Both the position numbers and the translations under genes were made by a program. A stretch of DNA of 64,000 bases from Sulfurimonas sp. (GTDB taxonomy: Bacteria > Campylobacterota > Campylobacteria > Campylobacterales > Sulfurimonadaceae): the NCBI GenBank assembly GCA_011391635.1, contig JAABQD010000010.1:3059-67058 (forward strand), read 5' to 3'. How positions within the stretch are numbered: position 1 is the first letter of the stretch; each line of letters begins with the position of its first letter. The notes under the pieces were generated by a model, which did no database searches, was not told where the DNA came from, and worked only from the letters and a program-made list of their open reading frames with translations. Shown here piece by piece: positions 5,049-61,369 of the stretch.

Positions 5049-5089
5049 TTCCACATGCCAAAAATCTTGGCATGTGGAACTATTTTTTA
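5049..5089 (+). terminator. Inverted pair of the 13-mer forming a hairpin with a U-tract; likely dnaK terminator
   Basis: TTCCACATGCCAA-aaatc-TTGGCATGTGGAA-ctatttttt between convergent genes. Confidence 0.8.
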
Positions 5090-5589
5090 TAATATTTAAA
5101 ATCTTCTTGTACTTTTTCTCTTGCATGTGCAAAATCCATTATCTCTCCACCAAACTTAGCTTGAAACTCTTTTGCCATTGCTTCTTCTAAAAAAGCATAT
5201 TTACTCACTTGAGTCATCGTGCCTCTTTTAGAACTTCCAACCACATAATATGCCTTTGTCACATCAATAAACTGGAGTGAAGTTACATCGACAACTTTTG
5301 GATTTTTTAGCTCTACACCCTCGCCTAAATGCTCTTCAAGACAGTGTAAAGAGCAGTATTGAATATTTTTACCATCATGTATGGCAGCATGATTTGTTTT
5401 GTAAAACTTTACCAAATCCATTCCACATCTGACACACTGTCCTTTTTGTGCACCCTCTTGCAAAAGCGTCGCATCCGATTTTTTCACACTTTGAAAAATC
5501 TTGTTTGGAGTGCATTCACTCTTTTGCGTTGCACACCCTAGCAGCAATAAACCCATAACCATAGCACCTAATATCTTTACCATACACAT
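5080..5589 (-). CDS. NosL-family metal-binding lipoprotein
   Basis: Lipobox LLLGC; CxxCGM, YCSLHCL, AYYVVGS..GTM, AKEFQAKFGG. Confidence 0.8.
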   Translation of the reverse strand: MCMVKILGAMVMGLLLLGCATQKSECTPNKIFQSVKKSDATLLQEGAQKGQCVRCGMDLVKFYKTNHAAIHDGKNIQYCSLHCLEEHLGEGVELKNPKVVDVTSLQFIDVTKAYYVVGSSKRGTMTQVSKYAFLEEAMAKEFQAKFGGEIMDFAHAREKVQEDFKYYKK

Positions 5590-5685
5590 TCCTCAATTTA
5601 TAATGTGAAGATGATAGCAATTATTTATTACATAATTGTTAAATTGACTATAATTGCGTACATATTCAAAAAAAATGGGGATAAA

Positions 5686-6183
5686 ATGCAAGAAAAAATA
5701 AAACACTACGCCAAAGAAACACTCCTCTTTTTTGTTCTGCTCACACTTATTGCAAATGTTTTGAGCCTTTACAAAAGTAGTGATGTAAATAAAGAGCCTC
5801 TTAAAATGGATTCAATTACGCTTATCAAGAATCAAAACTATCAACTTCCACATGCCAAGCCTATTCTCATCCATTTTTGGGCATCATGGTGTCCAACCTG
5901 CTCTCTTGAAGCATCCAACATACAAAAAATTTCCGAGCATTATGAAACAATTACTATTGCTGTAAAATCTGGAAGTGATGCAGAGATACAACAATTTTTG
6001 CAAGAGAGAAATTTAAACTTTCAAGTTGCCAATGATGCGAATGGTATCTATGCCAATAGCTTCAAAATAGCTGCATTTCCGACAACACTCATCTATGATA
6101 AAGAGAAAAATTTAGTTTTTAGTGAAGTTGGTTATACATCAACTTTAGGGTTATATCTTAGAATGTGGTGGAGTAGTTTATAA
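5686..6183 (+). CDS. Membrane-anchored TlpA/redoxin-family disulfide oxidoreductase (start likely MQEK at 5686, not 5605)
   Basis: HFWASWCPTC, FPTTLIYD, N-terminal TM helix. Confidence 0.85.
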   Translation: MQEKIKHYAKETLLFFVLLTLIANVLSLYKSSDVNKEPLKMDSITLIKNQNYQLPHAKPILIHFWASWCPTCSLEASNIQKISEHYETITIAVKSGSDAEIQQFLQERNLNFQVANDANGIYANSFKIAAFPTTLIYDKEKNLVFSEVGYTSTLGLYLRMWWSSL

Positions 6184-6199
6184 GAGGAAAAAATGAGTA

Positions 6200-6230
6200 T
6201 TGGCATGTGGAAATAAATTCCACATGCCAA
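6200..6230. terminator. Inverted pair of the 13-mer between convergent genes
   Basis: TTGGCATGTGGAA-ataaa-TTCCACATGCCAA. Confidence 0.7.
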
Positions 6231-6245
6231 CTTCAAAAAAGAGTA

Positions 6246-9200
6246 TTACGATTTAATTGTTACCGCATACGCTTTATCAGAAAGTGGTACCCAAGGGCGT
6301 TTGAGATGTTTCGGGCGACGGATTGTTGAATTTTCATCCAATCCTCTTGTGAGCTGATCTCTCCATCCTTGATATACTTTAAAGTTATTTTCATAATTAA
6401 CATGAATATCACCTATTTTATCCCCTTTTTCTGCAGGTTCTAAAATAACTTTTTGGTGCCAACAATGCATACCAGAAATAGGGTCTGGGTGTGGAGCTGC
6501 CACAGCATTTTGCCATGAACCACTTAAACCATCCCACCAAATATTTCCACTATCTCTGTTATAATCAGCAAATCTTTCAGTATGGAAAGGTTTAATTCCC
6601 TCAACATATTTAAGTTTACCCTCTTTTCCATCCATCTGAAGTTCAGCAGTTGGAACACCGAAACTATTGATTCCACTTGTGCCGTTATACCCTTCGATGA
6701 TAATTTGTGCACCCTCTTTACCTACATTTTCTGGTGTATGAGCCATAAATTTAGGGTCATTCATATTTCTAGTCACTGGTTGTGAATCTACTTTACCATC
6801 TGTTACACCATTAGGGATTGTTACATGGTTAGTAAGTTTCCATCTACCGCCGTGGTGTGAACAAGCAAGAGTTCCAGGTAAAACACCCTCAGTTGGAACT
6901 GCCATTGCCACAAAATAGCCTGATTCAAGACCTGTTAAACTATCTACAATTTTTACACGAATTGCATCACCGCGTTTAAATCCTTGACGTGCTGCATCCC
7001 CAGTTGAAATCCAAATCGGATCATGATTTTGAGAAATTTCCATCAAGTGTTTTGAGTTTGCTGAACGCGTATGAATATTATACGGCAAACGGAAAACAGT
7101 ATTGAGTGCATACGAATTTTTCTCTGTCATAAACGAGTGATTTACATGAGAAACGATATGTGTCATCTTCTTTTTCTCTGCATCATTTCTTGGATAGAAT
7201 GGAATCGCATACTCTGGCCATTTCCAATCATCAGCCAACCACTCACAGAAGAAGTCAAGTTTTTTATCTGGTGTTGCAAAACCTTCCATTTTCACGCCAT
7301 CAATCTCAATGCCCATCGGTGTTTTTTTACCATCATGCTCAGCCGTCATAACACCTGTACGCGGGTTGATATGTACATGGCTTTTCTCATATTTATGTCC
7401 GTGAGAGATGTAGTTTTCACCATCATCTTTTATCACTCTTTCTTGAGGAGAATAAATATTGTTCTCTTCCATCCATGCACCATGGTCTCTTAAGTATTCA
7501 TACACTGGAAACTCAGAATTTTTATATCTTGCATCTGCCAAAGCTGTTGCTTTAAGATTTGGTAAATTATCACCAAATGCTGCATCGTACCACTCAGCAA
7601 TTGTCACTGGTGTACCTGGAGTTTTTTTAGATTCCCACATTTTTTTGATGCCAAGTCTGCCAGTTGGGTCAATGTAATTCACACACATTTCAAACCAGAA
7701 CTCATTATCTTCCCAAACTTCACCAAGACCAGCTTTAATATGTGCCTCAAGCGTAGCTCGTGCAGGATTTTTAGCTTTCCATCCCATTTTTTCTAAAGCA
7801 ACACGAAGAACTGGTTGACGGAATGATGTCCATCTTGCAGGCATTGTAGCTTCAGAATGTTGGTCATGTCTTTCACCTGCAAGTCCCACTGGCAGGATAT
7901 AATCCATATACCAGTTTGTCTCACTCCACACAGGAGAGAGGTTCATCGTAAGTTCCATCTTAGATTCATCTTTAAGTGTATCTATCCATCTAAATCCATC
8001 CGGATTAATCCATACAGGATTGTACATACGAGGGATATACACGGAGAGTTTTTTAGGAACTGTTAGTCCTTTTGCTATCCACTTGTTCTGCCACTCTGTA
8101 TCGCTAAGAAGGTGTGGTAAAAGATACGACATCTCATACGAAGAGAGAGGCCACTCTGGTGGATATGTAAGTTCATTATAAACATCCACTTTAGGAATAT
8201 TTGCACCACGCATACCTTGACCAACCGTAGCACTTCCACCTTTTCCTGAAACCGAAATAACATGCCAGTGATGGAAAAATGTACCACCCTCTGGTCCGAT
8301 TGCTCCACGAAGAGCCAACGAGAGGTATCCTGTACGACCACTCATCCAACCACCACGATTTCCAGCAGCAGTAGCTCTCCAGAAATAGGTAGAAATAGAA
8401 GTTCCCGCCCAAATAAACATATCATAAAGTGCCTCAAGTTTGTATGCAGGGACATGTGTCTCTTTTACCGCATACTCAAGTGTATAAGGTGCATAAAGCT
8501 CTTTGAGCATTTCGATAAAATCTTCAAATTTGTCACTACTTGGCATTTTAGATATATAGCCTTTGAGTACCATATATTCTAAGTATGCTTTATTATCAAG
8601 CATTACTTCCCAGTTCAACCACTTTTTCACGAAAGCTTTATTTACTTTGCCTTCACTCAACATTCTTTGTGTTAAATAAAGATAAATTACTGGCTCAGTC
8701 CCTGGCCATGAAGCAATCCAAAGATCTGCCATACCAGCTGAGTTTGACATACGAGGATCCATAACTACAAGTTTTGCACCCTTTGCTCTTGCATCTGCTA
8801 TAAATGAAGCTGATTGTTGGAAATAGTGTCCAGCATCCGCAGCATGAGAAGAGTTAAGAAAGATTAACTTTGCATTTGCCCAATCTGGAGATGTTCTATC
8901 ATCATTCGCCCATTGCATAGTTGGTGTTCGACCATTAGATGAACAGATATTAGTGTGTGAGTTATAACAATCAAGTCCTAATGTATGCCAGATAGCAGGT
9001 ACAAATCCATTTTCATTTGGACGACCAACATGGAACATCACAGATTTTTTAGAGAGTTCATCCCCTTTTTCAATCGTGTCTGCCATTTTTTTACCAATGG
9101 TAGTCATCGCCTCATCCCAAGTTGTACGAACCCATTTTCCTTCACCACGAGCAGAACCAGCAGCTCTTTTGAGTGGAAATGCTATACGATCTGGATCATA

Positions 9201-9638
9201 CATTTGCGATTGTGCAGCGTATCCTTTTGCACAGTTACGACCTCTACTTGCTGCATGTAATGGATTCCCCATATATTTCTTGACTGTAAATGATTTTTTA
9301 TCTACCCATGCAGTAAGTCCACATGAAGCTTCACAGTTTGAACATGCGGTAGGAATAATCATATAATCATTCACTTCAATACCATCAGGATTTGATTCGC
9401 TTCTTACACCTTTACGGTCTATTCCACCTCTTTTCCAATCATCCCCATCTAACTCTTTAAAATCACTCCACTCTTCCATAGGAGGGTAAAATGAGAGTGT
9501 ATCAGGAGTATTTGTAAATTTACTCTCAGCTACTGACTCAGCAAGAGCGTCCGTTGTAAATACACCTTTAGCAATAGTTGCACCAGCAACAGTGAATGCA
9601 GCACCTTTTAAAAATGTTCTTCTACTTTGTAAATACAT
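6246..9638 (-). CDS. Tat-exported molybdopterin oxidoreductase catalytic subunit (Psr/Ttr/Srd/Arr clade, substrate unknown)
   Basis: SRRTFLK Tat motif; CSNCEASC...NCAKG 4Fe-4S cluster; SHTNICS putative Cys ligand; C-terminal HTRSAN molybdopterin-dinucleotide region. Confidence 0.85.
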   Translation of the reverse strand: MYLQSRRTFLKGAAFTVAGATIAKGVFTTDALAESVAESKFTNTPDTLSFYPPMEEWSDFKELDGDDWKRGGIDRKGVRSESNPDGIEVNDYMIIPTACSNCEASCGLTAWVDKKSFTVKKYMGNPLHAASRGRNCAKGYAAQSQMYDPDRIAFPLKRAAGSARGEGKWVRTTWDEAMTTIGKKMADTIEKGDELSKKSVMFHVGRPNENGFVPAIWHTLGLDCYNSHTNICSSNGRTPTMQWANDDRTSPDWANAKLIFLNSSHAADAGHYFQQSASFIADARAKGAKLVVMDPRMSNSAGMADLWIASWPGTEPVIYLYLTQRMLSEGKVNKAFVKKWLNWEVMLDNKAYLEYMVLKGYISKMPSSDKFEDFIEMLKELYAPYTLEYAVKETHVPAYKLEALYDMFIWAGTSISTYFWRATAAGNRGGWMSGRTGYLSLALRGAIGPEGGTFFHHWHVISVSGKGGSATVGQGMRGANIPKVDVYNELTYPPEWPLSSYEMSYLLPHLLSDTEWQNKWIAKGLTVPKKLSVYIPRMYNPVWINPDGFRWIDTLKDESKMELTMNLSPVWSETNWYMDYILPVGLAGERHDQHSEATMPARWTSFRQPVLRVALEKMGWKAKNPARATLEAHIKAGLGEVWEDNEFWFEMCVNYIDPTGRLGIKKMWESKKTPGTPVTIAEWYDAAFGDNLPNLKATALADARYKNSEFPVYEYLRDHGAWMEENNIYSPQERVIKDDGENYISHGHKYEKSHVHINPRTGVMTAEHDGKKTPMGIEIDGVKMEGFATPDKKLDFFCEWLADDWKWPEYAIPFYPRNDAEKKKMTHIVSHVNHSFMTEKNSYALNTVFRLPYNIHTRSANSKHLMEISQNHDPIWISTGDAARQGFKRGDAIRVKIVDSLTGLESGYFVAMAVPTEGVLPGTLACSHHGGRWKLTNHVTIPNGVTDGKVDSQPVTRNMNDPKFMAHTPENVGKEGAQIIIEGYNGTSGINSFGVPTAELQMDGKEGKLKYVEGIKPFHTERFADYNRDSGNIWWDGLSGSWQNAVAAPHPDPISGMHCWHQKVILEPAEKGDKIGDIHVNYENNFKVYQGWRDQLTRGLDENSTIRRPKHLKRPWVPLSDKAYAVTIKS

Positions 9639-9650
9639 TTATATTTCTCC

Positions 9651-10556
9651 CTAACTCATTGGTAATAATTGTGGAATCATTAGCCAAACATGTTTAACTA
9701 ACCACAGACCTGCTAACGCTAAAACAGCGGCAAGTTTTAAAATATTTTCACTTTTACTCGCACGACTGAGCACTATAAGCAACATTGGTAAAAGATACGT
9801 CATCCATTGTCCTAACCAAAACATTACAGTATATGGACCATCGCCTTTGATGTATTCAAGAACTGCCGCAACTTCTTCTGCTTTCATTGGACCAAAAATG
9901 TACTCTGACATGTATAAAATAAATGACATCATTGCACTTAAGCCAAGAACAACACCTAAAGTTTTTTTCGCTTCATAGTCAAGTTTTGAACCTGAGAGTA
10001 AAATCATAAACGATGAACCAGCAACAAGTGCTGCTAAAATCATTTGAGCTGATTCTGTCGGCATTTGCCACAATTCGCGTGCTGTACACTGAGACATAAG
10101 CCCCGCTGTATAGAGCGTAACAGGGATAGCAAGAAGTACAACCCATGTCAAAGTTTTATCAAATGCTGCATCATCTTTTTTAATGAAACTAAGAAATGCT
10201 AACAAGAAAAGAAGCCCAACAAAAGCCGTAGCCATCCAAGCACCAACAGTAATCGCCGATGTTACATGTGGGAAGAAAAATATATGCCACATTCTAAATG
10301 GCTGATGTAAATCAGCAAGTGTGAACAATAAGAATATATGAATAAATATAATTGAAACTACCGTCGTTGGAAATCGCAATTTACCAGCTTGATCTGGGTA
10401 CTTTTTGAGAAGTAAAAAGAGCATAAAAATAACACCCGTTCCAATACTCTTTGCCCACATGTTCACAGTTACAAGCCAAGGCCAAACTGTCCCTGGTAAA
10501 GCTACATCTAAAGTTACAATAGCATTTGTTGCTGTTAATATTTCATGTGCCGCCAT
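9651..10556 (-). CDS. NrfD/PsrC-family membrane anchor
   Basis: Multi-TM; LADLHQPFRMWH, SAITVGAW, LYTAGL. Confidence 0.88.
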   Translation of the reverse strand: MAAHEILTATNAIVTLDVALPGTVWPWLVTVNMWAKSIGTGVIFMLFLLLKKYPDQAGKLRFPTTVVSIIFIHIFLLFTLADLHQPFRMWHIFFFPHVTSAITVGAWMATAFVGLLFLLAFLSFIKKDDAAFDKTLTWVVLLAIPVTLYTAGLMSQCTARELWQMPTESAQMILAALVAGSSFMILLSGSKLDYEAKKTLGVVLGLSAMMSFILYMSEYIFGPMKAEEVAAVLEYIKGDGPYTVMFWLGQWMTYLLPMLLIVLSRASKSENILKLAAVLALAGLWLVKHVWLMIPQLLPMS

Positions 10557-11194
10557 TAGTGGTGTCCTCCTATAGGAAGTGTAGTAATATTGTTAAAGAG
10601 ATTATGTCCTTCTCCTCTATGAGAAGCTAAAGGATTAAGAGTAACATTTCCACCATTGACATAAAAATGATGAGGATTTGTTCCTTTTTCAGGCTTACGC
10701 ACTTGAACATTCCCTTGATTTTTTTGAATATATTTAGAAATATTTGAAGTCGGATTATCTAAATCACCAAAAATATTCGCTTGAACAGGACATGCAACAA
10801 CACATGCAGGCATCATAGACGAAGCAACACGGTGTGCACAATAAGTACACTTATCAGCCGTATGTGTCAATGGATCAATATAAATAGCACCATAAGGACA
10901 TGCCATAACACAACCAGCACAACCGATACATCTCTCTTTGTCGATATTGACGATACCGTTTTCAAGATAATGCAATGCACTTACCGGACAAATTCTCTGG
11001 CATGGAGCATTTTCACAATGATTACATCTAAGCGGTGTAAATGTTCTTTTTGTCTCTGGAAAAGTTCCAACATCTACATACTTTACTCTTAGTCTCCATG
11101 TACTAAGCGGAACTTCATTTTCCACTTTACATGCGACTTCACACCCTTTGCATCCCATACACAGATGCAAATCAACTAGGAAACCTAATTGCAT
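10556..11194 (-). CDS. 4Fe-4S dicluster electron-transfer subunit (PsrB/NrfC-like)
   Basis: CMGCKGC, CNHCENAPC, CIGCAGC..ACPY, KCTYC..CVVACP. Confidence 0.92.
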   Translation of the reverse strand: MQLGFLVDLHLCMGCKGCEVACKVENEVPLSTWRLRVKYVDVGTFPETKRTFTPLRCNHCENAPCQRICPVSALHYLENGIVNIDKERCIGCAGCVMACPYGAIYIDPLTHTADKCTYCAHRVASSMMPACVVACPVQANIFGDLDNPTSNISKYIQKNQGNVQVRKPEKGTNPHHFYVNGGNVTLNPLASHRGEGHNLFNNITTLPIGGHH

Positions 11195-11413
11195 ATATTC
11201 TCCTTTAACCTTTTTGATGGTACATTTAAGATTTATAGCTTTTTCTAATCTATTTAAAAAGATTCTCTTATATCAAAAAAAGAGCCCTTTTGCTGTAGCC
11301 ATAGTACCTAAGAAACCTTAAAAATGTTATAAAGATGTGATATCTTTTTTGTAATAAATGCGTGATTGAGTAGTTTTGAGAAGGATAATTTGAAAAGATT
11401 TTGGAGTTTTATT

Positions 11414-11446
11414 TTCCACATGCCAAAGTGTGATTGGCATGTGGAA
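11414..11446. terminator. Inverted pair of the 13-mer downstream of the 11458-11934 gene
   Basis: TTCCACATGCCAA-agtgtga-TTGGCATGTGGAA; no U-tract. Confidence 0.6.
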
Positions 11447-11457
11447 TTACAAAATTG

Positions 11458-11934
11458 TTATTTTTCGACGACAAACTCAGAAGGGTTTGTAAGACAATCC
11501 ATTCCATCTGAATGTTTCTCTACATTCGTACCATACGAGTAAGTGAGTTCCCCACCCATTTTACCTTGAAAAAGAACACCGCCACTTATAATTGCAACCA
11601 TAAGTATCGCAAAAATTTCTGCTTTGAGCATCTTTTTGTTGCAACCTATGATTTTGGCAATCGTCGCGATGCCCATCCCAATAACCAAAAAGAGTCCAAA
11701 CTCTTTATGATTTTTGAGTAATTCTTGTCCTGCTTCAGGTAAAAGAATAAAAGCATCTGCCGCCTCAGTTTTTCCTGAAAAAAATGCTGCTAATAAAAAG
11801 ATGCTAGCAAAAACCATAAAACGCGTTGAAATTTTTGACATCAACTCGCTTGGCTTAATTAAATAAGCAACTCCTAATACTAAAGAAATAATTGGTAAAA
11901 CCACCGCAAAATGAGCAGCTGCTGGATGTAACAT
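11458..11934 (-). CDS. DUF2231-like membrane protein
   Basis: MLHPAAAHFAVVL start, four TM helices, GKMGGELTY. Confidence 0.7.
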   Translation of the reverse strand: MLHPAAAHFAVVLPIISLVLGVAYLIKPSELMSKISTRFMVFASIFLLAAFFSGKTEAADAFILLPEAGQELLKNHKEFGLFLVIGMGIATIAKIIGCNKKMLKAEIFAILMVAIISGGVLFQGKMGGELTYSYGTNVEKHSDGMDCLTNPSEFVVEK

Positions 11935-12046
11935 ATTTTTATCCTTTTTTTGAATTACTATATTCTACAATTTAATAGTTAATTGTTATAAATTAAACAT
12001 GCTAATTGTTCCAAAATTTATAAACTCTTGGCATGTGGAAATCTAA

Positions 12047-13339: not shown

Positions 13340-13341
13340 AT

Positions 13342-14275: not shown

Positions 14276-14289
14276 TTTTTGCTCTCTTA

Positions 14290-15576: not shown

Positions 15577-15593
15577 ATGCCAACCTTCTCTTT

Positions 15594-16034: not shown

Positions 16035-16063
16035 ATTTTTATACCTTTTAAACTAATTTTGGC

Positions 16064-18950: not shown

Positions 18951-18951
18951 A

Positions 18952-20088: not shown

Positions 20089-20099
20089 TTCTCTTCTCC

Positions 20100-22120: not shown

Positions 22121-22132
22121 GTGAGTAGTTAG

Positions 22133-22981
22133 ATGGGCAAGAAAAAAAAGTGTAAGAAAGTTGAATGTCCAGCTGGAGAAAAATGGGCAGTTCCAACAGC
22201 CGACTTTTTTAGTCTCCTTCTAGCACTCTTCATTGCTCTCTTTGCTATTGCATCTGTCAATACAGAAAAAATAAAAGCTGTCAAAGAAGAATTTGTAAAA
22301 ATTTATGATTTTGCTGCTCCACCTGATAGAATGACTCCTGTACAAAATCTCTCACCTGATAGCAAAAAACCAGATCCTGATGCAGAAGGCAAACCTGCTG
22401 GTAAAATGTTGGCTGAAGATGGAGGTTCACTTTTCGTAGGCGAAGAGAAACAACCGCAACAAGCGAAAGATGCAATAAGCAAAATCCAACAGGAGATGCA
22501 AAAAGCAGCTGCTGGTTCAGATGGACCGCTTGATCAAGCAATGGATGGAGTTCTTCTAAAACTTCCTATTTCTATCCCTTTTAAAGGTGCAGAAGTTACT
22601 ATTGATAATGAAGAGTTACATCTATTTATTCGCCGTGCTGCATATATTATCAATGCTCTTCCAGCCAATGTAGATATCTCTGTTCGTGGTTACACAGATG
22701 ATAAACCAGTTGCAAAAGATTCTGCTTTTTCAAGCAATATTGAATTATCAGCTAAACGAGCAGATACAGTAATGAAAGAATTGATTGTGAATGGTGTCAA
22801 TGCAGAGCGTCTCTCAACTGCTGGATTTGGCTCAGCAAAACCGATAGCACCAAACTCTACAGAAGAAAATCGAGCTAAAAATAGACGCGTAGAACTCTAT
22901 ATTTTTATAAATAAAGATATGCCTCTCTCCCAAGAGAAGAAAAGTAATCTCTTAGACGCATTTAGTAAACTTCAAAAGTAA
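22133..22981 (+). CDS. motB: Flagellar stator MotB
   Basis: WAVPTADFFSLLLALFIAL; OmpA domain GYTDD..NIELSAKRA..NRRVE. Confidence 0.95.
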   Translation: MGKKKKCKKVECPAGEKWAVPTADFFSLLLALFIALFAIASVNTEKIKAVKEEFVKIYDFAAPPDRMTPVQNLSPDSKKPDPDAEGKPAGKMLAEDGGSLFVGEEKQPQQAKDAISKIQQEMQKAAAGSDGPLDQAMDGVLLKLPISIPFKGAEVTIDNEELHLFIRRAAYIINALPANVDISVRGYTDDKPVAKDSAFSSNIELSAKRADTVMKELIVNGVNAERLSTAGFGSAKPIAPNSTEENRAKNRRVELYIFINKDMPLSQEKKSNLLDAFSKLQK

Positions 22982-22988: not shown

Positions 22989-23020
22989 ATTTCCACATGC
23001 CAATTATGGCATGTGGAAAT
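22989..23020. terminator. Inverted pair of the 13-mer between convergent motB and groEL
   Basis: 14-bp perfect stem ATTTCCACATGCCA-atta-TGGCATGTGGAAAT. Confidence 0.7.
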
Positions 23021-23022: not shown

Positions 23023-24651
23023 TTACATCATTCCTGGCATTCCGCCCATTCCACCGCCCATATCTGAAGCAGGTTTCTCTTCCGGAATTTCAAAAATAGC
23101 AGCTTCCGTTGTCAAAAGTAAACTTGAAACAGAAGTAGCATTGAGAAGTGCAACTCTTGCTACTTTAAGTGGGTCAATAATTCCCGCTTCAAACATATCA
23201 ACATATTCGCCCGTAGCTGCATTAAAGCCAATATTTTCATTTGTAGCACTCTCCACTGCATTGACTACAACACCTGTGTCATACCCAGCATTTTGAGCGA
23301 TTTGTTTCATCGGAGCTTTGACCGCACGAAGAATAATTTCGCAACCGATTTTTTGATCACCCGATAAATCAAGGTTTACTTTCGCAGCAGCACGGACTAA
23401 AGCCGCTCCACCACCGATAATAATTCCCTCTTCTACCGCTGCTTTCGTAGCTGATAAAGCGTCATCCACACGGTCTTTTCTCTCTTTCATTTCTGTTTCA
23501 GTTGCAGCACCTACTTTGATAACCGCTACACCGCCACTAAGTTTTGCTAGTCGTTCTTGAAGTTTCTCTTTATCATACTCAGAAGAGGTCGCATCGATTT
23601 GCACTTTGATTTCAGCGATTCTTGCTTTTACAGCTGCTTCATCTCCTGCACCATTGACGATAACCGTCGTATCTTTATCGAGAATAATACGAGACGCTTG
23701 TCCTAACATCTGAAGATTTGCACCCTCTAGTGTGTGTCCTGTCTCTTCTGAAACAACTGTACCACGCGTTAAAATTGCTATATCTTGAAGCATTGCTTTT
23801 CTTCTATCACCAAAACCTGGGGCTTTGACTGCAGAAATATTTAAAACGCCTCGAAGTTTATTTACAACCAAAGTTGAGAGTGCTTCTCCCTCTACATCTT
23901 CAGCAATGATGAGAAGTGGACGAGAAGTTTTCTGAACTTGCTCCAATACTGGAAGTAAATCTTTAAGAGATGAAATTTTACTGTCCACAAGTAAAATCCA
24001 AGGATTTTCTATCTCAGCTATCATTTTTTCAGGATTTGTGATGAAATATGGGCTTAAATAGCCACGGTCAAATTGCATTCCTTCAACAACTGTTAGCTCA
24101 TCCGAAATACCTTTTGCTTCCTCAACCGTAATCACACCGTCCTGTCCAACTTTGTCCATAGCTTCAGCAATCATATCGCCAATAGCCGTGTCTGAGTTTG
24201 CAGAGATAGTTGCAACTTGTGCTATATCTTTTTTGCCGTTGACTGCTTTAGAAGCTGTTTTTAGGTTTGCTAAAATCGCCTCACACGCTTTATCCATACC
24301 GCGTTTTACTTCAACTGGATTTGCTCCAGCAGTGATGTTTCTAAGACCTTCAGAAAAAATCGCATTTGCTAAAACCGTAGCTGTTGTCGTGCCATCTCCT
24401 GCTTCATCCGCAGTGTTTGAAGCAACCTGTTTTACAAGTTGTGCACCCATGTCTTCAAGTTTGTCTTTAAGTTCAATCTCTCTTGCAACTGTCACACCAT
24501 CTTTTGTGATTATTGGTGAGCCGTAACTTTTTTGAATCAAAACATTACGACCGCGAGGTCCCATTGTCACTTTTACTGCATCTGTTAGTTTTGCAACTCC
24601 ACGAGCTAATGCGTTTCTTGCATTATCTGAAAATATTATCTCTTTTGCCAT
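23023..24651 (-). CDS. groL: Chaperonin GroEL
   Basis: [31 protein letters not shown] tail. Confidence 0.99.
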
Positions 24652-26976: not shown

Positions 26977-27053
26977 GTCAGGGTAGCTCAGCTGGTTAGA
27001 GCACTGGTCTCATAAGCCGGGGGTCGGGGGTTCGAGTCCCCCCTCTGACACCA
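26977..27053 (+). tRNA. tRNA with anticodon CAT, non-initiator (elongator Met most likely; Ile2 not excluded)
   Basis: Acceptor GTCAGGG/CTCTGAC, anticodon loop CTCATAA, GGTTCGAGTCC, encoded CCA; TATAAT at 26952. Confidence 0.93.
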
Positions 27054-48132: not shown

Positions 48133-48182
48133 AAACTTATTTTACCACAGTAAACTTTTGATAAAATTTTAGAAAAAGGGTC

Positions 48183-50633: not shown

Positions 50634-50690
50634 AATTCCCTCTCATATCAAAAATGGTATAATAGCACATCCAACATAAAGAGGGCAATT

Positions 50691-53192: not shown

Positions 53193-53194
53193 GC

Positions 53195-54520
53195 CTAATT
53201 TACCCCAATCTGAAAGTACTCAAACCCATACTTTTTCATCTTCTCTTTGTTAAACTGGTTGCGTCCATCAAAGAAAACTGGATTTTTAAGCAATTTTTTC
53301 ATCTCATCAAAATCAGGGCTTCTAAATTCTTGCCACTCTGTGACCAAAACAAGTGCATCTGCATCTTTTAACGCCTCGTATTTACTCTCAACATACGACA
53401 CTTTTTCATTGCCTTTTAAGTAGTGTGTTTGTGCTTCGTGGATTGCTTTTGGGTCATACGCTACGACATTTGCCCCTCTGCTTGTGAGTTCATTTATGAT
53501 TGTGATGGAACTTGCCTCTCGCATATCATCCGTTTCAGGTTTGAAACTAAGCCCCCAAACAGCGAAAGTTTTTCCACTTAAATCTGCACCGAAACGGGTG
53601 ATTACTTTGTTTGACATTACATATTTTTGGTCGTAATTTACCGCTTCAACCGCATCCAAAATTCTAGGGTTATAACCAAAATCTTTTGCCGTTTTTGCAA
53701 GTGCTTGAACATCTTTTGGAAAACAACTTCCTCCATATCCGCACCCTGGGTAGATGAAACTATAACCGATTCTACTATCGCTTCCTATACCATTTCTCAC
53801 CTTATTGATATCCGCTCCAACGCGTTCACAAATCTGGCTCATCTCATTCATAAAAGAGATTTTTGTCGCAAGCATCGCATTTGCAGCGTACTTTGTCATC
53901 TCTGCCGACTTGATATCCATAGAGATAAATCGGTCGTGGTGCTTCATAAATGGAGCGTAAAGTTCACGCATAATCTCTAACGCTCTCTCACTATCCGCAC
54001 CGATAACAACACGGTCAGGATGTAAAAAATCATTAATCGCAGCACCCTCTTTTAAAAACTCAGGGTTTGAGACGACATCAAACTCTAAATTCACCCCTCT
54101 TTCATCGAGTTGTGCTTGGATAGTCGCTCTTACTTTGTCCGCAGTTCCCACAGGAACAGTTGATTTATCGACCACCACAATGTAATCTTCCATAGCCTCA
54201 CCGATACTTTTTGCAACTGCCAAAACATAACGCAAATCAGCACTTCCATCCTCGCCCATCGGTGTTCCAACAGCTATAAAAGCGATTTGTGCATTTTTTA
54301 TAGCACCACTTACATCCGTTGAGAAATGAAGCGTTTTATTTTTATAATTTTCGAGTGTCATATCTTCTAAACCTGGCTCATATATAGGGATGATGCCTTG
54401 TTTTAAATTCTCTATTTTTTTTGCATCTATATCCACACAAGTTACTTTGTTTCCCATTTGAGCGAAGCACACTCCGCTAACTAGTCCTACATAGCCCGTG
54501 CCGATTACTGATATTTTCAT
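53195..54520 (-). CDS. ugd: UDP-glucose 6-dehydrogenase
   Basis: [26 protein letters not shown]. Confidence 0.95.
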
Positions 54521-54602
54521 AAATTTAGTTCCTAAAATATTTTTTAATTTTTTTATATTACCTTAAAATGGATATAATTCGCCTTATTTTCGAGGAACTC
54601 CA

Positions 54603-56513: not shown

Positions 56514-57769
56514 AACCGCCTTTTGCATGGGATAACTTCTCCGACCAACCTTACCAACTCAAAGATAGAGCGTTTAAAAAAATGATGCGAAAAAAAGAGC
56601 TCTTTTCCCTTACTAAAACATTTTTCACAGCTCTTTTTATCTTGCCAATTTCGCTTATTTTGATGCCATTTATAAAAAGAAAGGATGTAGAATCAAGCAC
56701 ATTTTTTTGTATGGGCGTAGATTTTGAGCGAGAACCAAAGCTTACTTTGGAGCTTTTAGAAGAGTTAGGTGTTGAGAGGGTTTTAGTCCGTTTTAAACTT
56801 TGGGAGATGGAGAAACTTCAGGAGCTAAAAGATTTTATTTCCACATGCCAAGATAAAAAAATCACACTCAAAATTATGCAAGACAGAGAGCATGTGGAAG
56901 ATTTGGAACTTCTCAAAGAAGATTTACGAACCATCTTTTCTACTTTATCTTGGCATGTGGAAATGTTTGAAATTGGCTCGACCATTAACCGTGCAAAGTG
57001 GGGTTTTTTTAGTGTAGATGAGTACAATCGTTTTTTTCAAACTGCTTATGATTTAAAAATTGCAGAGTTTCCACATGCCAAGCTTCTAGGAAGCGGAGTG
57101 ATAGATTTTGAGTATCACTTCACGGCACACACTCTCTTTAATTTTTTCAAATACCACTACGATGGAGTTGCATCCCTTCTCTATGTCGATAGACGCGGTG
57201 CACCTGAAAATAGCCAAATGGGGTTTGATTTATCAGCCAAAATTGCACTCCTTCGCACTATGGTTTGGCTCTCACCAAAAAGTGCAAATGCACTTCACAT
57301 CACGGAGACAAATTGGCCGATAAGCAACACTGCACCTTACGCACCAACGAGTGAACATGAGTGTGTGGATGAGGAAAGTTACGCAAACTTTATGCTTCGT
57401 TACTATCTTTTAGCTTACGCATCGGGGCATGTGGATTCTGTATCTTGGCATCAGCTCATTGCAGCGGGATATGGACTGATTGACAATCGTGATGGAGTTA
57501 GAAAACGCTCCGCTTTTTATGTCTATAAATTTATGGTAAAAAATCTAAAAAATGCCAAATTCCTTCAAATAAATACAACAAAAGAGTACACTATCTTAGA
57601 GGCTCATGTAAACAATCAACTTTTACAAATCCACTGGTCGCTCCAACCTGCGACACTCAAAAATGAAGACTCTTTTGAAGTTTACTCATCAGAGGGAAAA
57701 TTAATAGAAGATGAAACGCTCACTATCAGTGCTTCTCCTCTGTATATTTACACAAAAGACGCGGTATAA
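56510..57769 (+). CDS. Clan GH-A-like TIM-barrel protein of unknown function
   Basis: FEIGSTINRAKWG, LYVDRRGAPEN, LHITETNW; one TM near the N-terminus. Confidence 0.55.
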   Translation: MKPPFAWDNFSDQPYQLKDRAFKKMMRKKELFSLTKTFFTALFILPISLILMPFIKRKDVESSTFFCMGVDFEREPKLTLELLEELGVERVLVRFKLWEMEKLQELKDFISTCQDKKITLKIMQDREHVEDLELLKEDLRTIFSTLSWHVEMFEIGSTINRAKWGFFSVDEYNRFFQTAYDLKIAEFPHAKLLGSGVIDFEYHFTAHTLFNFFKYHYDGVASLLYVDRRGAPENSQMGFDLSAKIALLRTMVWLSPKSANALHITETNWPISNTAPYAPTSEHECVDEESYANFMLRYYLLAYASGHVDSVSWHQLIAAGYGLIDNRDGVRKRSAFYVYKFMVKNLKNAKFLQINTTKEYTILEAHVNNQLLQIHWSLQPATLKNEDSFEVYSSEGKLIEDETLTISASPLYIYTKDAV

Positions 57770-57777
57770 TTGCACCC

Positions 57778-58452
57778 ATGAATAAAAAATACTTACATAT
57801 AAAACTCTCTTTTTGGCTTCTTTTTTTACTCTCGTCTATGCTTTTTATCTTTTTTCCGCAGATAGATTTGTTTGTCACAAACCTCTTTTATGATGGCAAC
57901 ACTTTTCCAGCAAACGGCATGTGGATTGAAGAGTTCTTTTACTACTCAGTACAACCTCTCATCATCGCATTTGCACTCGCTTCTTTAGCGATTTTTACTT
58001 ACAATTTTTTTACAAAAAAGAGTGTTTTAAATGTGAATGCCAAAGTTGTTTTATATCTTCTTTTGGTTTTGGGTCTTGCCCCTGGACTTATTGTAAATGC
58101 TACACTCAAAGAGAACTGGGGCAGAGCAAGACCAGCTGAAACACTCAATTTTGGTGGAACAAAAGAGTTCACTCCAGCCTTCATTCCAAGCAATCAAGGC
58201 GGATACTCTTTTAGCTCAGGTCACGCTGCTGCGGCTTTTTCTCTTTTAGGATTTGCTCTTTTAGCGAAGAAGCGAAGAAACTTTTGGATTGCATTGACAC
58301 TCGCCTATGGCGTGTTTGTGAGCGTTGCCAGAGTCTCCTCAGGTGGACACTTTTTTAGTGATGTTGTAACCTCATTTTTCATAGTTACCCTCTTTACTTT
58401 GAGCATTTATGGTTTTCTCATGCAAGAAGAAGAAAAAAAGGAACTCCCATAA
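57778..58452 (+). CDS. PAP2-family phosphatase (possible lipid A phosphatase)
   Basis: K..WGRARP, SFSSGH, R..SGGHFFSDV. Confidence 0.85.
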   Translation: MNKKYLHIKLSFWLLFLLSSMLFIFFPQIDLFVTNLFYDGNTFPANGMWIEEFFYYSVQPLIIAFALASLAIFTYNFFTKKSVLNVNAKVVLYLLLVLGLAPGLIVNATLKENWGRARPAETLNFGGTKEFTPAFIPSNQGGYSFSSGHAAAAFSLLGFALLAKKRRNFWIALTLAYGVFVSVARVSSGGHFFSDVVTSFFIVTLFTLSIYGFLMQEEEKKELP

Positions 58453-60365
58453 TTTTTCGCAACCAACTTACGCAAATATTATTTGTACTTTGCATCAGTT
58501 TTGTAACGCTTATGGCGATTCGTTTGTCGCTTTATAATTTTTATCTTGCTGACTTTAGCGACCTAAGCAGTGGGGAATTTTACGCTTCACTTTTGATGGG
58601 TTTTCGTGTGGATATGATTACGCTTTTTACCTTCTCCTCTCTTTTTATTTTAGCTCTACTCTTTGTCAAAAACCCCAAAAGAAGAGCTGTGATAGCACTA
58701 GTTTGGGCGATGGTGCTCAACACTATTTTTGTCCTCAGTTTTAGCGATGTTCTCTACTACGACTATATCCACAGACACATGTCGAGTGAAATTTTTAACC
58801 TTGGCGATGATGCGGATATTATTGTGGGCATGGCATTTGGTTCGATGCTCCCCTTTACGCTTGGTGCGATTATTCTCAGTGGTACATTTTTCTATACGAT
58901 TTATAAAGTTTTTTTACAAGAATTAGTGCATTTCATCTTGGGAAAAAAACTCATTTTTCTTACACTCATCACACTTTTAACGCTTTTTATAGGCATAAGA
59001 AATAGTTTCGCAGGGAAAAGTTTTGGAAGTGCAGATGCCTATGCAGTCAACAAAGTAAGTAGCGGAAACTTAGCACTCAACGGCTTTTTTACCATTTACA
59101 GAACGGCAAAAACCTCCTCCAAACACACCCTTACAAAACTCGACGATGCCATAAAAATCACACAAGAGGCAATGCAAACTCCAAATGCACCTTTTCTTGA
59201 TAAAGAGTATCCACTTCTTCGCTCCTACGCCAAAAAGGAGAAGCCAAAATACAATGTCGTCATCGTTTTACTCGAATCTTTTGGAGCAGAGCATGTGGAT
59301 GGTTTTACCCACTACAAAGAGCTGAATGTCACACCCTACTTCAAAAAACTCTCCAATGAAGGGCTGAAATTTACCAATTTTTACTCCAATGGGTATCGCT
59401 CCATTTTTGGTATAACTTCAGTTTTCACAGGCATCACTATCCCGACAGGCTTTGAGTATCTTGGCAAAGGTTTAGAACTCTCCAACCTCAGTTACTTGGG
59501 ACAAGTTGCAAAAAACAACGGATACTCTACACTCTCAATGCAAGCGGCAAATAATCGCTCCTACAGAGTCGATGCTGTGAGCCATCTTGCAGGTTTTGAT
59601 GCCTACTATGGAGCAGATGACATGCCGAACATTGAAGCATGTGATGAGGGAAGAGCACCACTCACTGGCACTTACGACTTTAATATGCTTGATTTTTATC
59701 ACAAAAAACTCAATGCTATGAAAGAGCCATTTTTAGGCTTTGCTTTTACGGATTCAACACACTCAGATTTTTATCTTCCAAGCAAAAAGTTTGAACGCTA
59801 TCCGCATGATTTGAAAAATTACAATGGCTCTTTAAACGCTTATATTTATGCAGATAACTCTATCGAGCGGTTTATGGAGAGCGTAAAAAAAGAGCCTTGG
59901 TTTGAGAGAACCATCTTTATCTTCACCTCAGACCATGGAAGCGGAGATGCCCTAAATGAGATTGCAAGAGCCTATCGTCCTGATGACAAAGCCCTCGACT
60001 CCATTGAGCATTTTAGAATTCCGCTTATCATTTATGCTCCAAAAATATTTGAACCTCAGGAGATTACAACCCTTGGTTCGCACAATGATATTTTTCCAAG
60101 TTTGGTGGATTTGTTAGGGTGGGAAGCAAATATCACAACGATGGGAAGTTCACTTTTTGATAAAAATATCCATGAGAGATTTGCCTACTTTTTTGCAGGA
60201 GACCTCATCGGACTAGTTACAAATGATGGATATGTAAAGTACAATTTTAAAAATATAGTCGAGCAAGTCGGAAGTGAAGCGAATGTAGAAAAGATGAAAA
60301 AGCTTCTTTTTGCCATTGATACAGCCGAAGCTGGACTTTTAGAAAAAAATAGGTGGGCTAAGTGA
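58449..60365 (+). CDS. LTA synthase / sulfatase-family membrane transferase (paralog 3); first ATG is 58512 but the homologous N-terminus extends to ATA at 58449
   Basis: VLLESFG, TDSTHSD, TSDHG, SHNDIFPS; close similarity to paralog 2. Confidence 0.8.
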   Translation: MIFRNQLTQILFVLCISFVTLMAIRLSLYNFYLADFSDLSSGEFYASLLMGFRVDMITLFTFSSLFILALLFVKNPKRRAVIALVWAMVLNTIFVLSFSDVLYYDYIHRHMSSEIFNLGDDADIIVGMAFGSMLPFTLGAIILSGTFFYTIYKVFLQELVHFILGKKLIFLTLITLLTLFIGIRNSFAGKSFGSADAYAVNKVSSGNLALNGFFTIYRTAKTSSKHTLTKLDDAIKITQEAMQTPNAPFLDKEYPLLRSYAKKEKPKYNVVIVLLESFGAEHVDGFTHYKELNVTPYFKKLSNEGLKFTNFYSNGYRSIFGITSVFTGITIPTGFEYLGKGLELSNLSYLGQVAKNNGYSTLSMQAANNRSYRVDAVSHLAGFDAYYGADDMPNIEACDEGRAPLTGTYDFNMLDFYHKKLNAMKEPFLGFAFTDSTHSDFYLPSKKFERYPHDLKNYNGSLNAYIYADNSIERFMESVKKEPWFERTIFIFTSDHGSGDALNEIARAYRPDDKALDSIEHFRIPLIIYAPKIFEPQEITTLGSHNDIFPSLVDLLGWEANITTMGSSLFDKNIHERFAYFFAGDLIGLVTNDGYVKYNFKNIVEQVGSEANVEKMKKLLFAIDTAEAGLLEKNRWAK

Positions 60366-61339
60366 GAATTCTGATTATACTTCCAAACTGGCTTGGCGAT
60401 GCGATTATGGCAACTCCTGCGATTGAACTTTTATCCAAAAACTTTCCACATGCCAAGTTTACTTTTGTTGGAAGTTTTGTGAGTATCGAAGCACTCAAAC
60501 ACCATCCAAAATGTGAAAAAGCAGTTGTGGATGAGACTAAAAAAGCATCGAATAGACTTTTAGCCACTTATAAACTAGCCAGAGAATTAGGTGAATTTGA
60601 TTTGGCGATAAGTTTTAGAAACCAGCTTCACGCTTCACTTTTACTACGCTTTACAAACACCGTAGTCTGCATTGCAAAGCGTTCATGGCACTCTCAATTT
60701 TTACTCTCACACACTCCTAAAATTTCCACAAAGCAACATTTAGTCCAGCAGTATGTACAACTTGCTATGACCAATGTGGACAGTTTTGATGGAAATATTG
60801 GCAGTTTAAAACTTTACATTGAACCAAAAAAATTCTCTCGTCCAACTTTGGGCATCAATGCTGGAGCAACCTATGGAAGTGCCAAACGATGGTATCCTGA
60901 GCGATTTGCGGAAGTTGCGAAAGAGTTTTCAGATGAGTTTGATATTCTTACATTTGGTGGGTCAAATGAAGTTGCAATGGCGAATGAGATAGAAAAAAAT
61001 CTAAAAGCTTGGCATGTGGAAAACTACACCAACTTAGCAGGAAAAACAACTATCGCTGAGTTGTGTGCAAATATCGGCGGATGTTCTTTATTTATCACAA
61101 ATGACAGTGGACCTATGCATGTTGCCGCCGCGTACCAAGTGCCAACCGTTGCCATTTTTGGACCGACAAAACATACAGAAACTTCGCAATGGATGAATGA
61201 AAAAAGTACAATTGTAAGGCATGAAATGGAGTGCAGTCCGTGTATGAAACGCGAATGTCCTCTTGGGCATCACGAATGTATGAAAAGTATTACAGCAAAT
61301 GAAGTAATAGAAGCGATGAAAAAGCTAGAAATTTATTAG
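60362..61339 (+). CDS. waaF: Heptosyltransferase II
   Basis: PNWLGDAIMA, GATYGSAKRW, NDSGPMH, GPT. Confidence 0.92.
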   Translation: MRILIILPNWLGDAIMATPAIELLSKNFPHAKFTFVGSFVSIEALKHHPKCEKAVVDETKKASNRLLATYKLARELGEFDLAISFRNQLHASLLLRFTNTVVCIAKRSWHSQFLLSHTPKISTKQHLVQQYVQLAMTNVDSFDGNIGSLKLYIEPKKFSRPTLGINAGATYGSAKRWYPERFAEVAKEFSDEFDILTFGGSNEVAMANEIEKNLKAWHVENYTNLAGKTTIAELCANIGGCSLFITNDSGPMHVAAAYQVPTVAIFGPTKHTETSQWMNEKSTIVRHEMECSPCMKRECPLGHHECMKSITANEVIEAMKKLEIY

Positions 61340-61343
61340 AGTT

Positions 61344-61369
61344 TTGGCATGTGGAACTTCCACATGCCA
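61344..61369. terminator. Inverted pair of the 13-mer between convergent waaF and hldE
   Basis: TTGGCATGTGGAA-c-TTCCACATGCCA. Confidence 0.65.

What the first reader, a model, noticed from the sequence alone, without database searches (positions are those of the whole stretch)
5049..61369. Every spaced convergent gene junction carries an inverted pair of the 13-mer
Pairs lie at dnaK/nosL-like (5049-5079), redoxin/Mo-enzyme (6200-6230), motB/groEL (22989-23020) and waaF/hldE (61344-61369), plus one after the DUF2231-like gene (11414-11446). The other convergent junctions (29206/29211, 44139/44141, 49493/49485, 51446/51421) abut or overlap and have no room. Both arm orders occur and the loops differ (1-7 nt), which suggests independent origins rather than a copied element. 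Only the dnaK hairpin has a clear U-tract. Neisseria DUS and Haemophilus USS are co-opted into terminators in the same way.
Basis: partly seen in the sequence, partly recalled or inferred. Interest (0 to 1): 0.72.

Follow-up and report, generated by a model that had tools for sequence, protein, structure and literature searches.

The report
Self-word hairpins at gene ends
In this uncultured Sulfurimonas, a 12-13 base word written about 760 times through the genome is set as back-to-back inverted pairs just after stop codons, mostly between genes that face each other. Neisseria and Haemophilus build gene-end hairpins from their DNA-uptake tags in the same way, but this has not been described for this phylum and no function has been tested.

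Summary
Observation confirmed. The window holds five tight inverted pairs of TTCCACATGCCA(A). All four convergent junctions with a spacer carry one.

Genome-wide (2.35 Mb) "every" does not hold: 48 of 144 spaced convergent junctions carry a pair. The enrichment is still very large. Pairs per kb are 2.09 in convergent, 0.39 in tandem, 0.07 in divergent spacers and 0.004 in genes. Pairs sit about 7 nt after stop codons.

They are not a MITE. Flanks are not conserved, there are 82 distinct loops among 105 pairs, and the two arm orders occur 54:51.

Relatives without the word have unrelated hairpins at the same groEL and dnaK 3' positions. So the hairpin is the conserved feature, and the word supplies its stem.

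The word behaves like an uptake sequence. It has 762 copies against 0.17 expected, lies on both strands and in all six frames, and is confined to one clade of the genus. Word-rich lineages keep it; a sister clade lets it decay at the flank rate.

Against a classic terminator: U-tracts are absent, as they are for the genome's other 3' hairpins. RNA data could not be obtained, so termination and uptake remain inferred.

Verdict: a new variant of a known kind (inverted uptake-sequence pairs at gene ends), in a new phylum.

The parts
5049..5079 (.). Inverted pair, order F..R. It forms a 13-bp stem with a 5-nt loop and fills the 50-nt spacer between dnaK (3143-5029 +) and nosL (5080-5589 -). A T-run follows on the + strand.
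   Evidence: (-20.9/-21.4 kcal/mol)
6200..6230 (.). Inverted pair, order R..F. It forms a 13-14 bp stem with a 5-nt loop in the 62-nt spacer between the redoxin gene (5605-6183 +) and the molybdopterin oxidoreductase gene (6246-9638 -). A T-run follows on the - strand.
   Evidence: (-22.2/-23.9 kcal/mol)
11414..11446 (-). Inverted pair, order F..R. It forms a 13-bp stem with a 7-nt loop, 11 nt downstream of the stop of the DUF2231 gene (11458-11934 -) and 220 nt upstream of the next co-directional gene (4Fe-4S protein, 10556-11194 -). No T-run.
   Evidence: (-22.6 kcal/mol)
22989..23020 (.). Inverted pair, order F..R. It forms a 14-16 bp stem with a 4-nt loop and fills the 41-nt spacer between motB (22133-22981 +) and groEL (23023-24651 -). 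No T-run. Relatives have unrelated hairpins at this position.
   Evidence: (-24.3/-22.9 kcal/mol)
61344..61369 (.). Inverted pair, order R..F. It forms an 11-13 bp stem with a 3-nt loop in the 42-nt spacer between the GT9 heptosyltransferase gene (60362-61339 +) and hldE (61382-62806 -). No T-run.
   Evidence: (-20.4/-18.7 kcal/mol)

Best explanation
TTCCACATGCCA(A) is a genome-wide 'self word' that a lineage-specific, sequence-specific process keeps in place. That process is most probably biased DNA uptake plus recombination, as for Neisseria DUS and Pasteurellaceae USS.

Gene ends in this group carry a stem-loop 0-20 nt after the stop codon. In short spacers between convergent genes, one palindromic stem-loop serves both transcripts. 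Any complementary sequence can form such a stem. In genomes where the word is being driven, word copies therefore take over both arms, giving inverted pairs.

The hairpin most likely acts on the RNA as a transcript-end structure, either a non-canonical or factor-assisted terminator or a 3'-end protector. It is not a textbook U-tract terminator.

Shown:
- the placement of the pairs and their enrichment;
- the lack of mobile-element features;
- conservation of the hairpin position with replaced sequence;
- maintenance of the word in some lineages and neutral decay in a sister clade.

Inferred:
- termination or stabilisation;
- uptake.
For: Abundance and spread of the word:
- 762 exact copies (384 +/378 -) against 0.17 expected. 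The 10-mer core has 1298 copies.
- Of 629 unpaired copies, 437 lie in genes, in all six frames.
- Orientation is only weakly linked to local GC skew (OR 0.75).

Placement of the pairs:
- Of 105 tight pairs, 50 are convergent, 35 tandem (27 of these within 20 nt of the upstream stop), 3 divergent and 8 in genes.
- Pairs are 31 times denser in convergent than in divergent spacers. Unpaired copies differ only 2-fold.
- Inverted versus direct tight pairs: 50 vs 5 in convergent spacers, but 8 vs 26 in genes.
- 85 of 159 convergent 3' ends that have a perfect hairpin use the word.
- The same placement holds in other word-bearing MAGs: 26 convergent, 38 tandem, 2 divergent.

The hairpin as the conserved feature:
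- After groEL, nearly every relative has a strong hairpin with an unrelated stem. Only this genome has the pair.
- After dnaK, 9 word-rich genomes have a pair, but with flipped arm orders and different loops. G308 and G211 show matching changes in both arms.

Lineage-specific maintenance:
- At about 81% flank identity, word-rich MAGs keep 0-1 mismatch at about 90% of orthologous sites.
- A sister clade keeps 0-1 mismatch at only 16-26% of sites, decaying at about the flank rate. The outgroup shows 5-7 mismatches.

Uptake machinery in the genome:
- ComEC, DprA, a T2SS-like pseudopilus cluster and type IV pilin-like genes are present.

Literature:
- Inverted-repeat DUS/USS lie mostly in predicted terminators.
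Against: - No U-tract: mean T count in the 8 nt after the stem is 2.89 against a background of 2.76. 13% of tails have at least 5 T, against 13.6% in background.
- Within the genome there is no excess of compensatory arm changes (7 observed, 6.0 expected).
- No link to a codon-adaptation proxy for expression.
- No transcript data.
- No uptake experiment and no receptor. A pilin tested across genomes does not track the word.
- ComEC and the pilus genes are also present in relatives without the word.
- The largest word-free stretches are conserved core operons (rpoBC, ribosomal proteins, ATP synthase), not acquired islands.
Confidence: 0.6

Rival explanations
1. Passive by-product. The pairs have no function of their own. 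3' spacers are simply the only places that tolerate both extra word copies and perfect palindromes. Quasi-palindrome correction or the drive on the word then fills them.
For: - No U-tracts.
- No compensatory excess within the genome.
- No link with the expression proxy.
- The sampled 315 kb of the decaying sister clade shows no pairs at all, so pairs vanish when the drive stops.
Against: - Unpaired copies tolerate divergent spacers only 2-fold less than convergent ones. Pairs are 31-fold rarer there.
- Pairs sit a median of about 7 nt from the stop rather than anywhere in the spacer.
- Relatives without the word keep other hairpins at the same positions.
- G308 and G211 show two-arm compensatory changes.
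Confidence: 0.2
2. The hairpin role holds, but the word is not an uptake signal. Another genome-wide process keeps it. Candidates are a binding site for a nucleoid or repair protein, biased gene conversion, or a defence/self-marking system. Inverted pairs are then co-opted at gene ends in the same way.
For: - No receptor was found. The competence genes are shared with relatives that lack the word.
- The word-free stretches are core operons rather than islands.
- No experimental competence data for Sulfurimonas turned up in the searched literature.
Against: - The full set of DUS/USS hallmarks is present.
- A plasmid-like contig and two polysaccharide loci lack the word.
- No pair is found in 2.9 million viral contigs.
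- No known non-uptake system produces this pattern. That last point rests on my own knowledge.
Confidence: 0.25
3. A REP/BIME-like or MITE-like mobile element: a copied hairpin unit spread by a Y1 (RAYT/IS200) transposase.
For: - The genome encodes Y1_Tnp proteins.
- REPs also form inverted pairs at 3' ends. That rests on my own knowledge.
Against: - No flank column exceeds 0.11 bit outside the stem-adjacent positions.
- There are 82 distinct inter-arm sequences among 105 pairs, and arm orders are 54:51.
- 57% of copies are single copies inside genes.
- No pair lies near any Y1 gene.
- A different hairpin (TTCCACC...GGTGGAA) is the one next to a Y1 match.
Confidence: 0.02
4. DNA-level palindromic sites bound by a dimeric protein, for example an operator, a recombination site or a replication-fork barrier, rather than RNA hairpins.
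For: Perfect palindromes of 12-16 bp are typical protein-binding sites. That rests on my own knowledge.
Against: - Half-site spacing varies from 0 to 20 nt and both arm orders occur. A fixed dimer geometry does not fit.
- About 100 sites are restricted to gene 3' ends.
- Relatives use unrelated stems at the same places.
Confidence: 0.05

Closest known systems
Inverted-repeat DNA uptake sequences (irDUS) of Neisseriaceae in transcriptional terminators (Ambur, Frye & Tonjum 2007, cited; bioRxiv 10.1101/2025.10.24.684340)
   Same: - A 10-12-mer with hundreds to thousands of copies, on both strands, in genes and spacers.
- Inverted pairs form stem-loops just downstream of genes.
- Restricted to a clade.
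- Competence genes are present.
   Different: - Unrelated word, different phylum (Campylobacterota).
- No ComP-type receptor identified; the pilus genes found are T2SS/Cts-like.
- The hairpins lack U-tracts.
- No dialect was found in the sister clade, only decay.
- Uptake is untested.
Uptake signal sequences (USS) of Pasteurellaceae and their inverted pairs in terminators
   Same: - An over-represented core with weakly conserved AT-rich flanks. Here: A at -2, T at -1, A at +12, R at +13, A at +14, then T-rich.
- Copies occur in all reading frames.
- Inverted pairs lie at 3' ends.
   Different: Different core sequence, different phylum, unknown receptor, no experimental uptake bias.
Bidirectional intrinsic terminators between convergent genes (established in E. 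coli and B. subtilis; my own knowledge)
   Same: One symmetric hairpin fills a short convergent spacer and can act on both transcripts.
   Different: Canonical ones have an A-tract and a U-tract on either side of the stem. Here T-runs are at background frequency.
REP/BIME elements and the Neisseria NTS/dRS3 repeats cut by SsnA (PMC11893778)
   Same: Abundant hairpin-forming repeats in spacers near gene ends.
   Different: Those units are themselves palindromic, almost never lie in genes (2% for NTS) and have conserved oriented flanks. Here the unit is a non-palindromic 12-mer, 57% of copies are in genes, and there are no flanks.

Membership tests
DUS/USS-type DNA uptake sequences | A short word (9-12 nt) with hundreds to thousands of copies, far above chance | tested here: met
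   762 exact 12-mers against 0.17 expected. The 10-mer core has 1298 copies, and its reversed control 2.
DUS/USS-type DNA uptake sequences | Both orientations about equal, with no strong replication-strand polarity | tested here: met
   384 + and 378 - copies. Odds ratio with local GC skew is 0.75, p = 0.02.
DUS/USS-type DNA uptake sequences | Copies inside genes in several reading frames as well as in spacers, and denser in spacers | tested here: met
   437 of 629 unpaired copies are in genes, in all six frames. Density is 0.20 per kb in genes and 0.96 per kb in spacers.
DUS/USS-type DNA uptake sequences | Inverted pairs concentrated at gene 3' ends or terminators | tested here: met
   85 of 105 tight pairs are in convergent or tandem 3' spacers; 3 are divergent.
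DUS/USS-type DNA uptake sequences | Clade-restricted, with conservation above background in carriers, and dialects in relatives | tested here: inconclusive
   High counts occur only in about 13 of about 200 species of one genus, and are nil in 22 other genera. Carriers conserve the copies. The sister clade shows decay, not a dialect. Other words in other Sulfurimonas species are known only from unchecked notes.
DUS/USS-type DNA uptake sequences | Competence machinery encoded (ComEC, DprA, pilus or pseudopilus) | tested here: met
   ComEC. DprA. T2SSE ATPase, GspD-like secretin, T2SSG and N_methyl pilins. All are probably also present in relatives without the word.
DUS/USS-type DNA uptake sequences | Sequence-specific DNA uptake shown, with a receptor known (ComP in Neisseria) | not testable with these tools
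   This needs uptake or transformation assays. One pilin tested across 30 genomes does not track the word.
DUS/USS-type DNA uptake sequences | Depleted in recently acquired DNA | tested here: inconclusive
   The plasmid-like contig C49 and two polysaccharide loci have 0-1 copies. But the five largest word-free stretches are conserved core operons.
Intrinsic (Rho-independent) terminators | A stable stem-loop shortly after the stop codon | tested here: met
   Median stem is 13 bp, median energy -19.5 kcal/mol. Median distance from the stop is 6-11 nt.
Intrinsic (Rho-independent) terminators | A U-tract directly after the stem | tested here: not met
   17 of 130 tails have at least 5 T in 8 nt (13%), against 13.6% in background. 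In the window, 2 of 9 hairpin directions have such a tail.
Intrinsic (Rho-independent) terminators | Transcripts end at the site | not testable with these tools
MITE / REP-BIME mobile repeats | A conserved unit beyond the stem (flanks, fixed loop) that lies outside genes only | tested here: not met
   The flank column maximum is 0.11 bit outside the stem-adjacent positions, and there are 82 distinct loops among 105 pairs. 57% of copies are in genes.
MITE / REP-BIME mobile repeats | Association with a RAYT/Y1 transposase gene flanked by the repeat | tested here: not met
   There are four Y1_Tnp matches. None is flanked by a pair.
Chi / KOPS-type polar motifs | Strong co-orientation with replication | tested here: not met
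   Counts by orientation and local skew: 195/322 versus 232/286.

The most novel reading that the evidence does not exclude
TTCCACATGCCA(A) is a true DNA-uptake (self-recognition) signal of a Sulfurimonas clade. That would be the first outside Neisseriaceae and Pasteurellaceae, read by a Cts/T2SS-like pseudopilus rather than a ComP-type pilin. Its inverted pairs act as U-tract-less, bidirectional transcript-end hairpins. Gene-content comparison of word-rich and decaying genomes would then point straight to the receptor.
Probability: 0.4. Interest if true: 0.8.

Novelty: new variant of a known kind. Interest (0 to 1): 0.6.

Why it matters
Sequence-tagged DNA uptake is documented in only two proteobacterial families. 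Here the full genomic signature appears independently in environmental Campylobacterota, including the recruitment of inverted pairs into gene-end hairpins. If it is real, self-preferring transformation is more widespread than thought.

It would also show that the link between uptake words and 3' hairpins is a general outcome of a sequence drive acting on stems whose sequence is free to vary.

The material offers a natural experiment. Close relatives either maintain the word or let it decay, which makes the unknown reader protein findable by comparison.

It also bears on how transcripts end in a group whose 3' hairpins mostly lack U-tracts.

Tried and rejected
- **Literature:** neither the word nor its complement appears in any paper except as chance primer matches. 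There is no paper on Sulfurimonas uptake sequences, and nothing useful on Sulfurimonas competence.
- **Receptor search:** orthologues of the pilin at C19:6879-7337 exist in word-rich, decaying and word-free genomes, with identities that do not track the word.
- **Apparent pseudogene:** a shared in-frame stop in a pilin gene of three decaying genomes turned out to be the stop of the upstream gene.
- **Dialects:** a k-mer scan of 35-100 kb from four intermediate genomes and one word-free genome found no alternative dominant word.
- **Word-free stretches as islands:** rejected. They are rpoBC/tuf, ribosomal protein, ATP synthase, TCA and flagellar regions.
- **Compensatory changes within the genome:** no excess.
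- **Expression proxy (codon adaptation):** no difference, p = 0.27.
- **Viral contigs:** no pair in either arm order.
- **Rfam:** only one tRNA in the window.
- **REP-RAYT:** Y1 genes are present but not flanked by the word.
- **Chi/KOPS:** no polarity.


Full report
**1. The observation**

The five sites read exactly as described. The shared word is TTCCACATGCCA, usually followed by A.

| Position | Arm order | Bases between 12-mers |
|---|---|---|
| 5049-5079 | F..R | 7 |
| 6201-6229 | R..F | 5 |
| 11414-11446 | F..R | 9 |
| 22991-23018 | F..R | 4 |
| 61345-61369 | R..F | 1 |

- The window has 32 exact copies, or 45 with up to one mismatch. Shuffles give 0.36.
- Pfam confirms the flanking genes: DnaK, NosL, a redoxin, a molybdopterin oxidoreductase, DUF2231, MotB, GroEL, a GT9 heptosyltransferase and HldE.
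- The window has eight convergent junctions. Four have spacers of 41-62 nt and each carries a pair. The other four abut or overlap.
- As RNA the hairpins fold at -18.7 to -24.3 kcal/mol, with z-scores of -5.7 to -8.5.
- Rfam knows no family at these sites.

**2. Whole-genome test**

The window lies in a 2.35-Mb, 84-contig, 35.8% G+C assembly. I called genes with a codon-usage-scored ORF method, giving 2252 genes and 93% coding.

The 12-mer:
- It occurs 762 times (384 +/378 -) against 0.17 expected.
- Positions 3-10 (CACATGCC) are nearly invariant. Positions 0, 2 and 11 vary.
- Of 629 unpaired copies, 437 lie inside genes, in all six frames. Density is about five times higher in spacers.
- Orientation hardly follows local GC skew.

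The pairs:
- Allowing two mismatches in total, there are 105 tight inverted pairs (0-20 nt between arms).
- 50 are in convergent spacers and 35 in tandem spacers. Of the tandem ones, 27 lie within 20 nt of the upstream stop and typically about 100 nt before the next start.
- 3 are in divergent spacers, 8 in genes and 9 at gene edges or contig ends.

| Location | Pairs per kb |
|---|---|
| Convergent spacers | 2.09 |
| Tandem spacers | 0.39 |
| Divergent spacers | 0.068 |
| Genes | 0.0037 |

- 48 of 144 convergent junctions with at least 30 nt of spacer carry a pair. 'Every' is therefore true of the window but not of the genome.

Two internal controls show that the inverted arrangement is what is placed at 3' ends:
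- Unpaired spacer copies differ only two-fold between convergent (1.55/kb) and divergent (0.77/kb) spacers.
- Same-orientation tight neighbours number 5 in convergent spacers against 50 inverted. Inside genes the ratio reverses, 26 direct against 8 inverted.

Among 314 convergent 3' ends with at least 25 nt of spacer, 159 have a perfect hairpin of at least 7 bp. 85 of those are built from the word.

**3. Not a mobile element**

- No flank column beyond the five positions next to the stem exceeds 0.11 bit.
- There are 82 distinct inter-arm sequences among 105 pairs.
- Arm orders are 54:51.
- Flank-to-flank BLAST hits are only overlapping records or further word copies.
- The genome has Y1 transposase genes, but none is flanked by the word.
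- Neither arm order of the pair occurs in 2.9 million viral contigs.

**4. Are the pairs classic terminators?**

- The 8 nt after the stem, read in the direction of an incoming gene, hold 2.89 T on average. Spacer background is 2.76.
- 13% of tails have at least 5 T, the same as background.
- The genome's other 3' hairpins lack T-runs too.
- In the window, only the dnaK side and the Mo-enzyme side pass a stem-plus-T-run scan.
- The structures therefore fail one defining feature of intrinsic terminators. They could be hairpin-only or factor-assisted terminators, or 3'-end protectors.
- A codon-adaptation proxy for expression shows no difference between genes followed by a pair and other genes.

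**5. Orthologous junctions in relatives**

After groEL:
- Nearly every one of about 45 genomes of the genus and order has a stable hairpin within about 40 nt of the stop. The stems are unrelated to each other.
- Other word-rich genomes (G250, G328, G243, G216) and the closest relatives also use non-word stems there.
- Only this genome has the pair.

After dnaK:
- Nine word-rich genomes carry a pair, but the loops differ and the arm order flips. It is F..R in G000, G243, G250 and G277, and R..F in G230 and G231.
- Word-free genomes have other hairpins or none.
- In two low-count genomes the pair survives with matching changes in both arms. G308 has C:G to T:A at motif position 3. G211 has lost one C from one arm and one G from the other.

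Reverse test:
- I took 69 F..R pairs found in other MAGs labelled Sulfurimonas, Sulfuricurvum or 'Helicobacteraceae'.
- 17 lie at junctions that are syntenic in this genome. Of these, 14 have a pair here, 2 have a degraded pair and 1 has none. Arms are conserved and loops are diverged.
- In those MAGs the placement is the same: 26 convergent, 38 tandem and 2 divergent, a median of 10 nt from a stop.

The conserved feature is thus the hairpin position. The word is the preferred building material wherever it is abundant. Pairs are both inherited and re-created.

**6. What the word is**

Distribution across genomes:
- A scan of 353 genomes of the family finds high counts of the 10-mer core (261-1307) in 13 species, all in the window's genus.
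- About 12 species have intermediate counts (33-183). The rest, including the other genera, have 20 or fewer, mostly background.
- On a groEL tree the main carriers form one clade. Inside it, five intermediate genomes form the sister group of this genome plus two 1300-copy genomes. This is a single-gene tree.

The intermediate genomes:
- They have no alternative word.
- Their residual copies are single copies, mostly inside genes (25 of 29). There are no pairs in 315 kb.
- At sites orthologous to this genome's copies they show a median of 2-3 mismatches. That is about the rate of the flanks (78-80% identity).
- The word-free outgroup G012 shows 5-7 mismatches.

The word-rich MAGs:
- JBAZSV and JAPLGP keep 0-1 mismatch at about 90% of orthologous sites, at the same flank identity of 81-82%. 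Counting in-gene sites only, the figure is 81-86%.

So the ancestor had the word. Some lineages actively maintain it, and one sister clade has stopped and is losing it.

Other evidence:
- The genome encodes ComEC, DprA, a T2SS-like cluster (ATPase, secretin, GspG-type and minor pseudopilins) and type IV pilin-like genes. From my own knowledge, this resembles the Campylobacter jejuni Cts transformation system.
- These genes also occur in relatives without the word. One pilin tested does not track the word.
- A plasmid-like contig (Replicase family) and two polysaccharide loci lack the word.
- The largest word-free stretches are conserved core operons, where coding constraint is the simpler explanation.

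**7. Comparison with what is known**

DNA uptake sequences are documented for Neisseriaceae and Pasteurellaceae only. Their inverted repeats lie mostly (70-90%) in predicted terminators (Ambur et al. 2007, as cited).

- The present case shares every sequence-level hallmark I could test.
- It differs in phylum, in the word itself, in the probable machinery and in the missing U-tracts.
- It differs from Neisseria NTS/dRS3 and from REP elements, which are palindromic units that lie outside genes and have conserved flanks.
- Earlier unchecked notes of this scan report the same word in other windows and other words in other Sulfurimonas species. I confirmed the first point independently and did not test the second.

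**8. Verdict**

- Both functional claims, termination and uptake, remain inferences.
- This is a new variant of a known kind. Its added value is a close pair of lineages that keep or lose the word, which makes the mechanism experimentally and comparatively tractable.

Noticed in passing
G000 contig C8:297-440 (outside the window): Nine head-to-tail copies of the 18-nt unit TTTCCACATGCCGTGATG, each holding the word. They lie near a contig start where I called no gene. One frame reads HAVMFP repeats.
   Followed up: partly
G000 contig C7:19177-19330 (outside the window): Four same-orientation copies of ATGGCATGTGGAAAT spaced 41 nt apart in one spacer. This is a direct array, unlike the usual inverted pairs.
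   Followed up: no
G000 C1:114980, 195726, 195872, 201623, 201769; C45:10; C57:18: Seven copies of a different hairpin, CTCGTTCCACC-N8-GGTGGAATGCATA, with conserved flanks. One lies next to a weak Y1 transposase match (C1:114653-114898). This is probably an IS200/IS605-type element, separate from the 12-mer.
   Followed up: partly
L142-L146 (G019, G301, G339, G251, G329), just after dnaK: In the clade where the word is decaying, the region after dnaK repeats the 3' coding end of dnaK (GCTGAGATAGAGTAA). In four of the five genomes (not G251) that copy pairs with its complement to form the 3' hairpin.
   Followed up: no
G000 contig C49 (6.8 kb): A plasmid-like contig with a Replicase family protein (PF03090) and a ParA-like protein. 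It has no copy of the word, where about 4 are expected.
   Followed up: partly
L065 (JAUSKV010000049.1, Sulfurimonas MAG): TTCCCACGCAG / CTGCGTGGGAA occurs three times in 4 kb, beside one pair of the main word. It may be another abundant word in that species.
   Followed up: no
L055 (JAQTTP010000022.1): A 3.3-kb contig binned as a 'Candidatus ainarchaeum' MAG carries a perfect pair of the word. It is most likely a mis-binned Sulfurimonas contig.
   Followed up: no
G000 C25:12409: One pair has both arms reading TTGCACATACCA. That is two compensatory changes relative to the word, with the arms still perfectly complementary.
   Followed up: no
window 26977-27050 (+): A tRNA gene, the only Rfam match in the window.
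   Followed up: no
groEL versus dnaK identities: By GroEL, this genome groups with G250 and G328 (1300 copies each). By DnaK it is closest to the decaying clade (97-98% against 94%). The gene trees may conflict, perhaps through recombination among these lineages.
   Followed up: no
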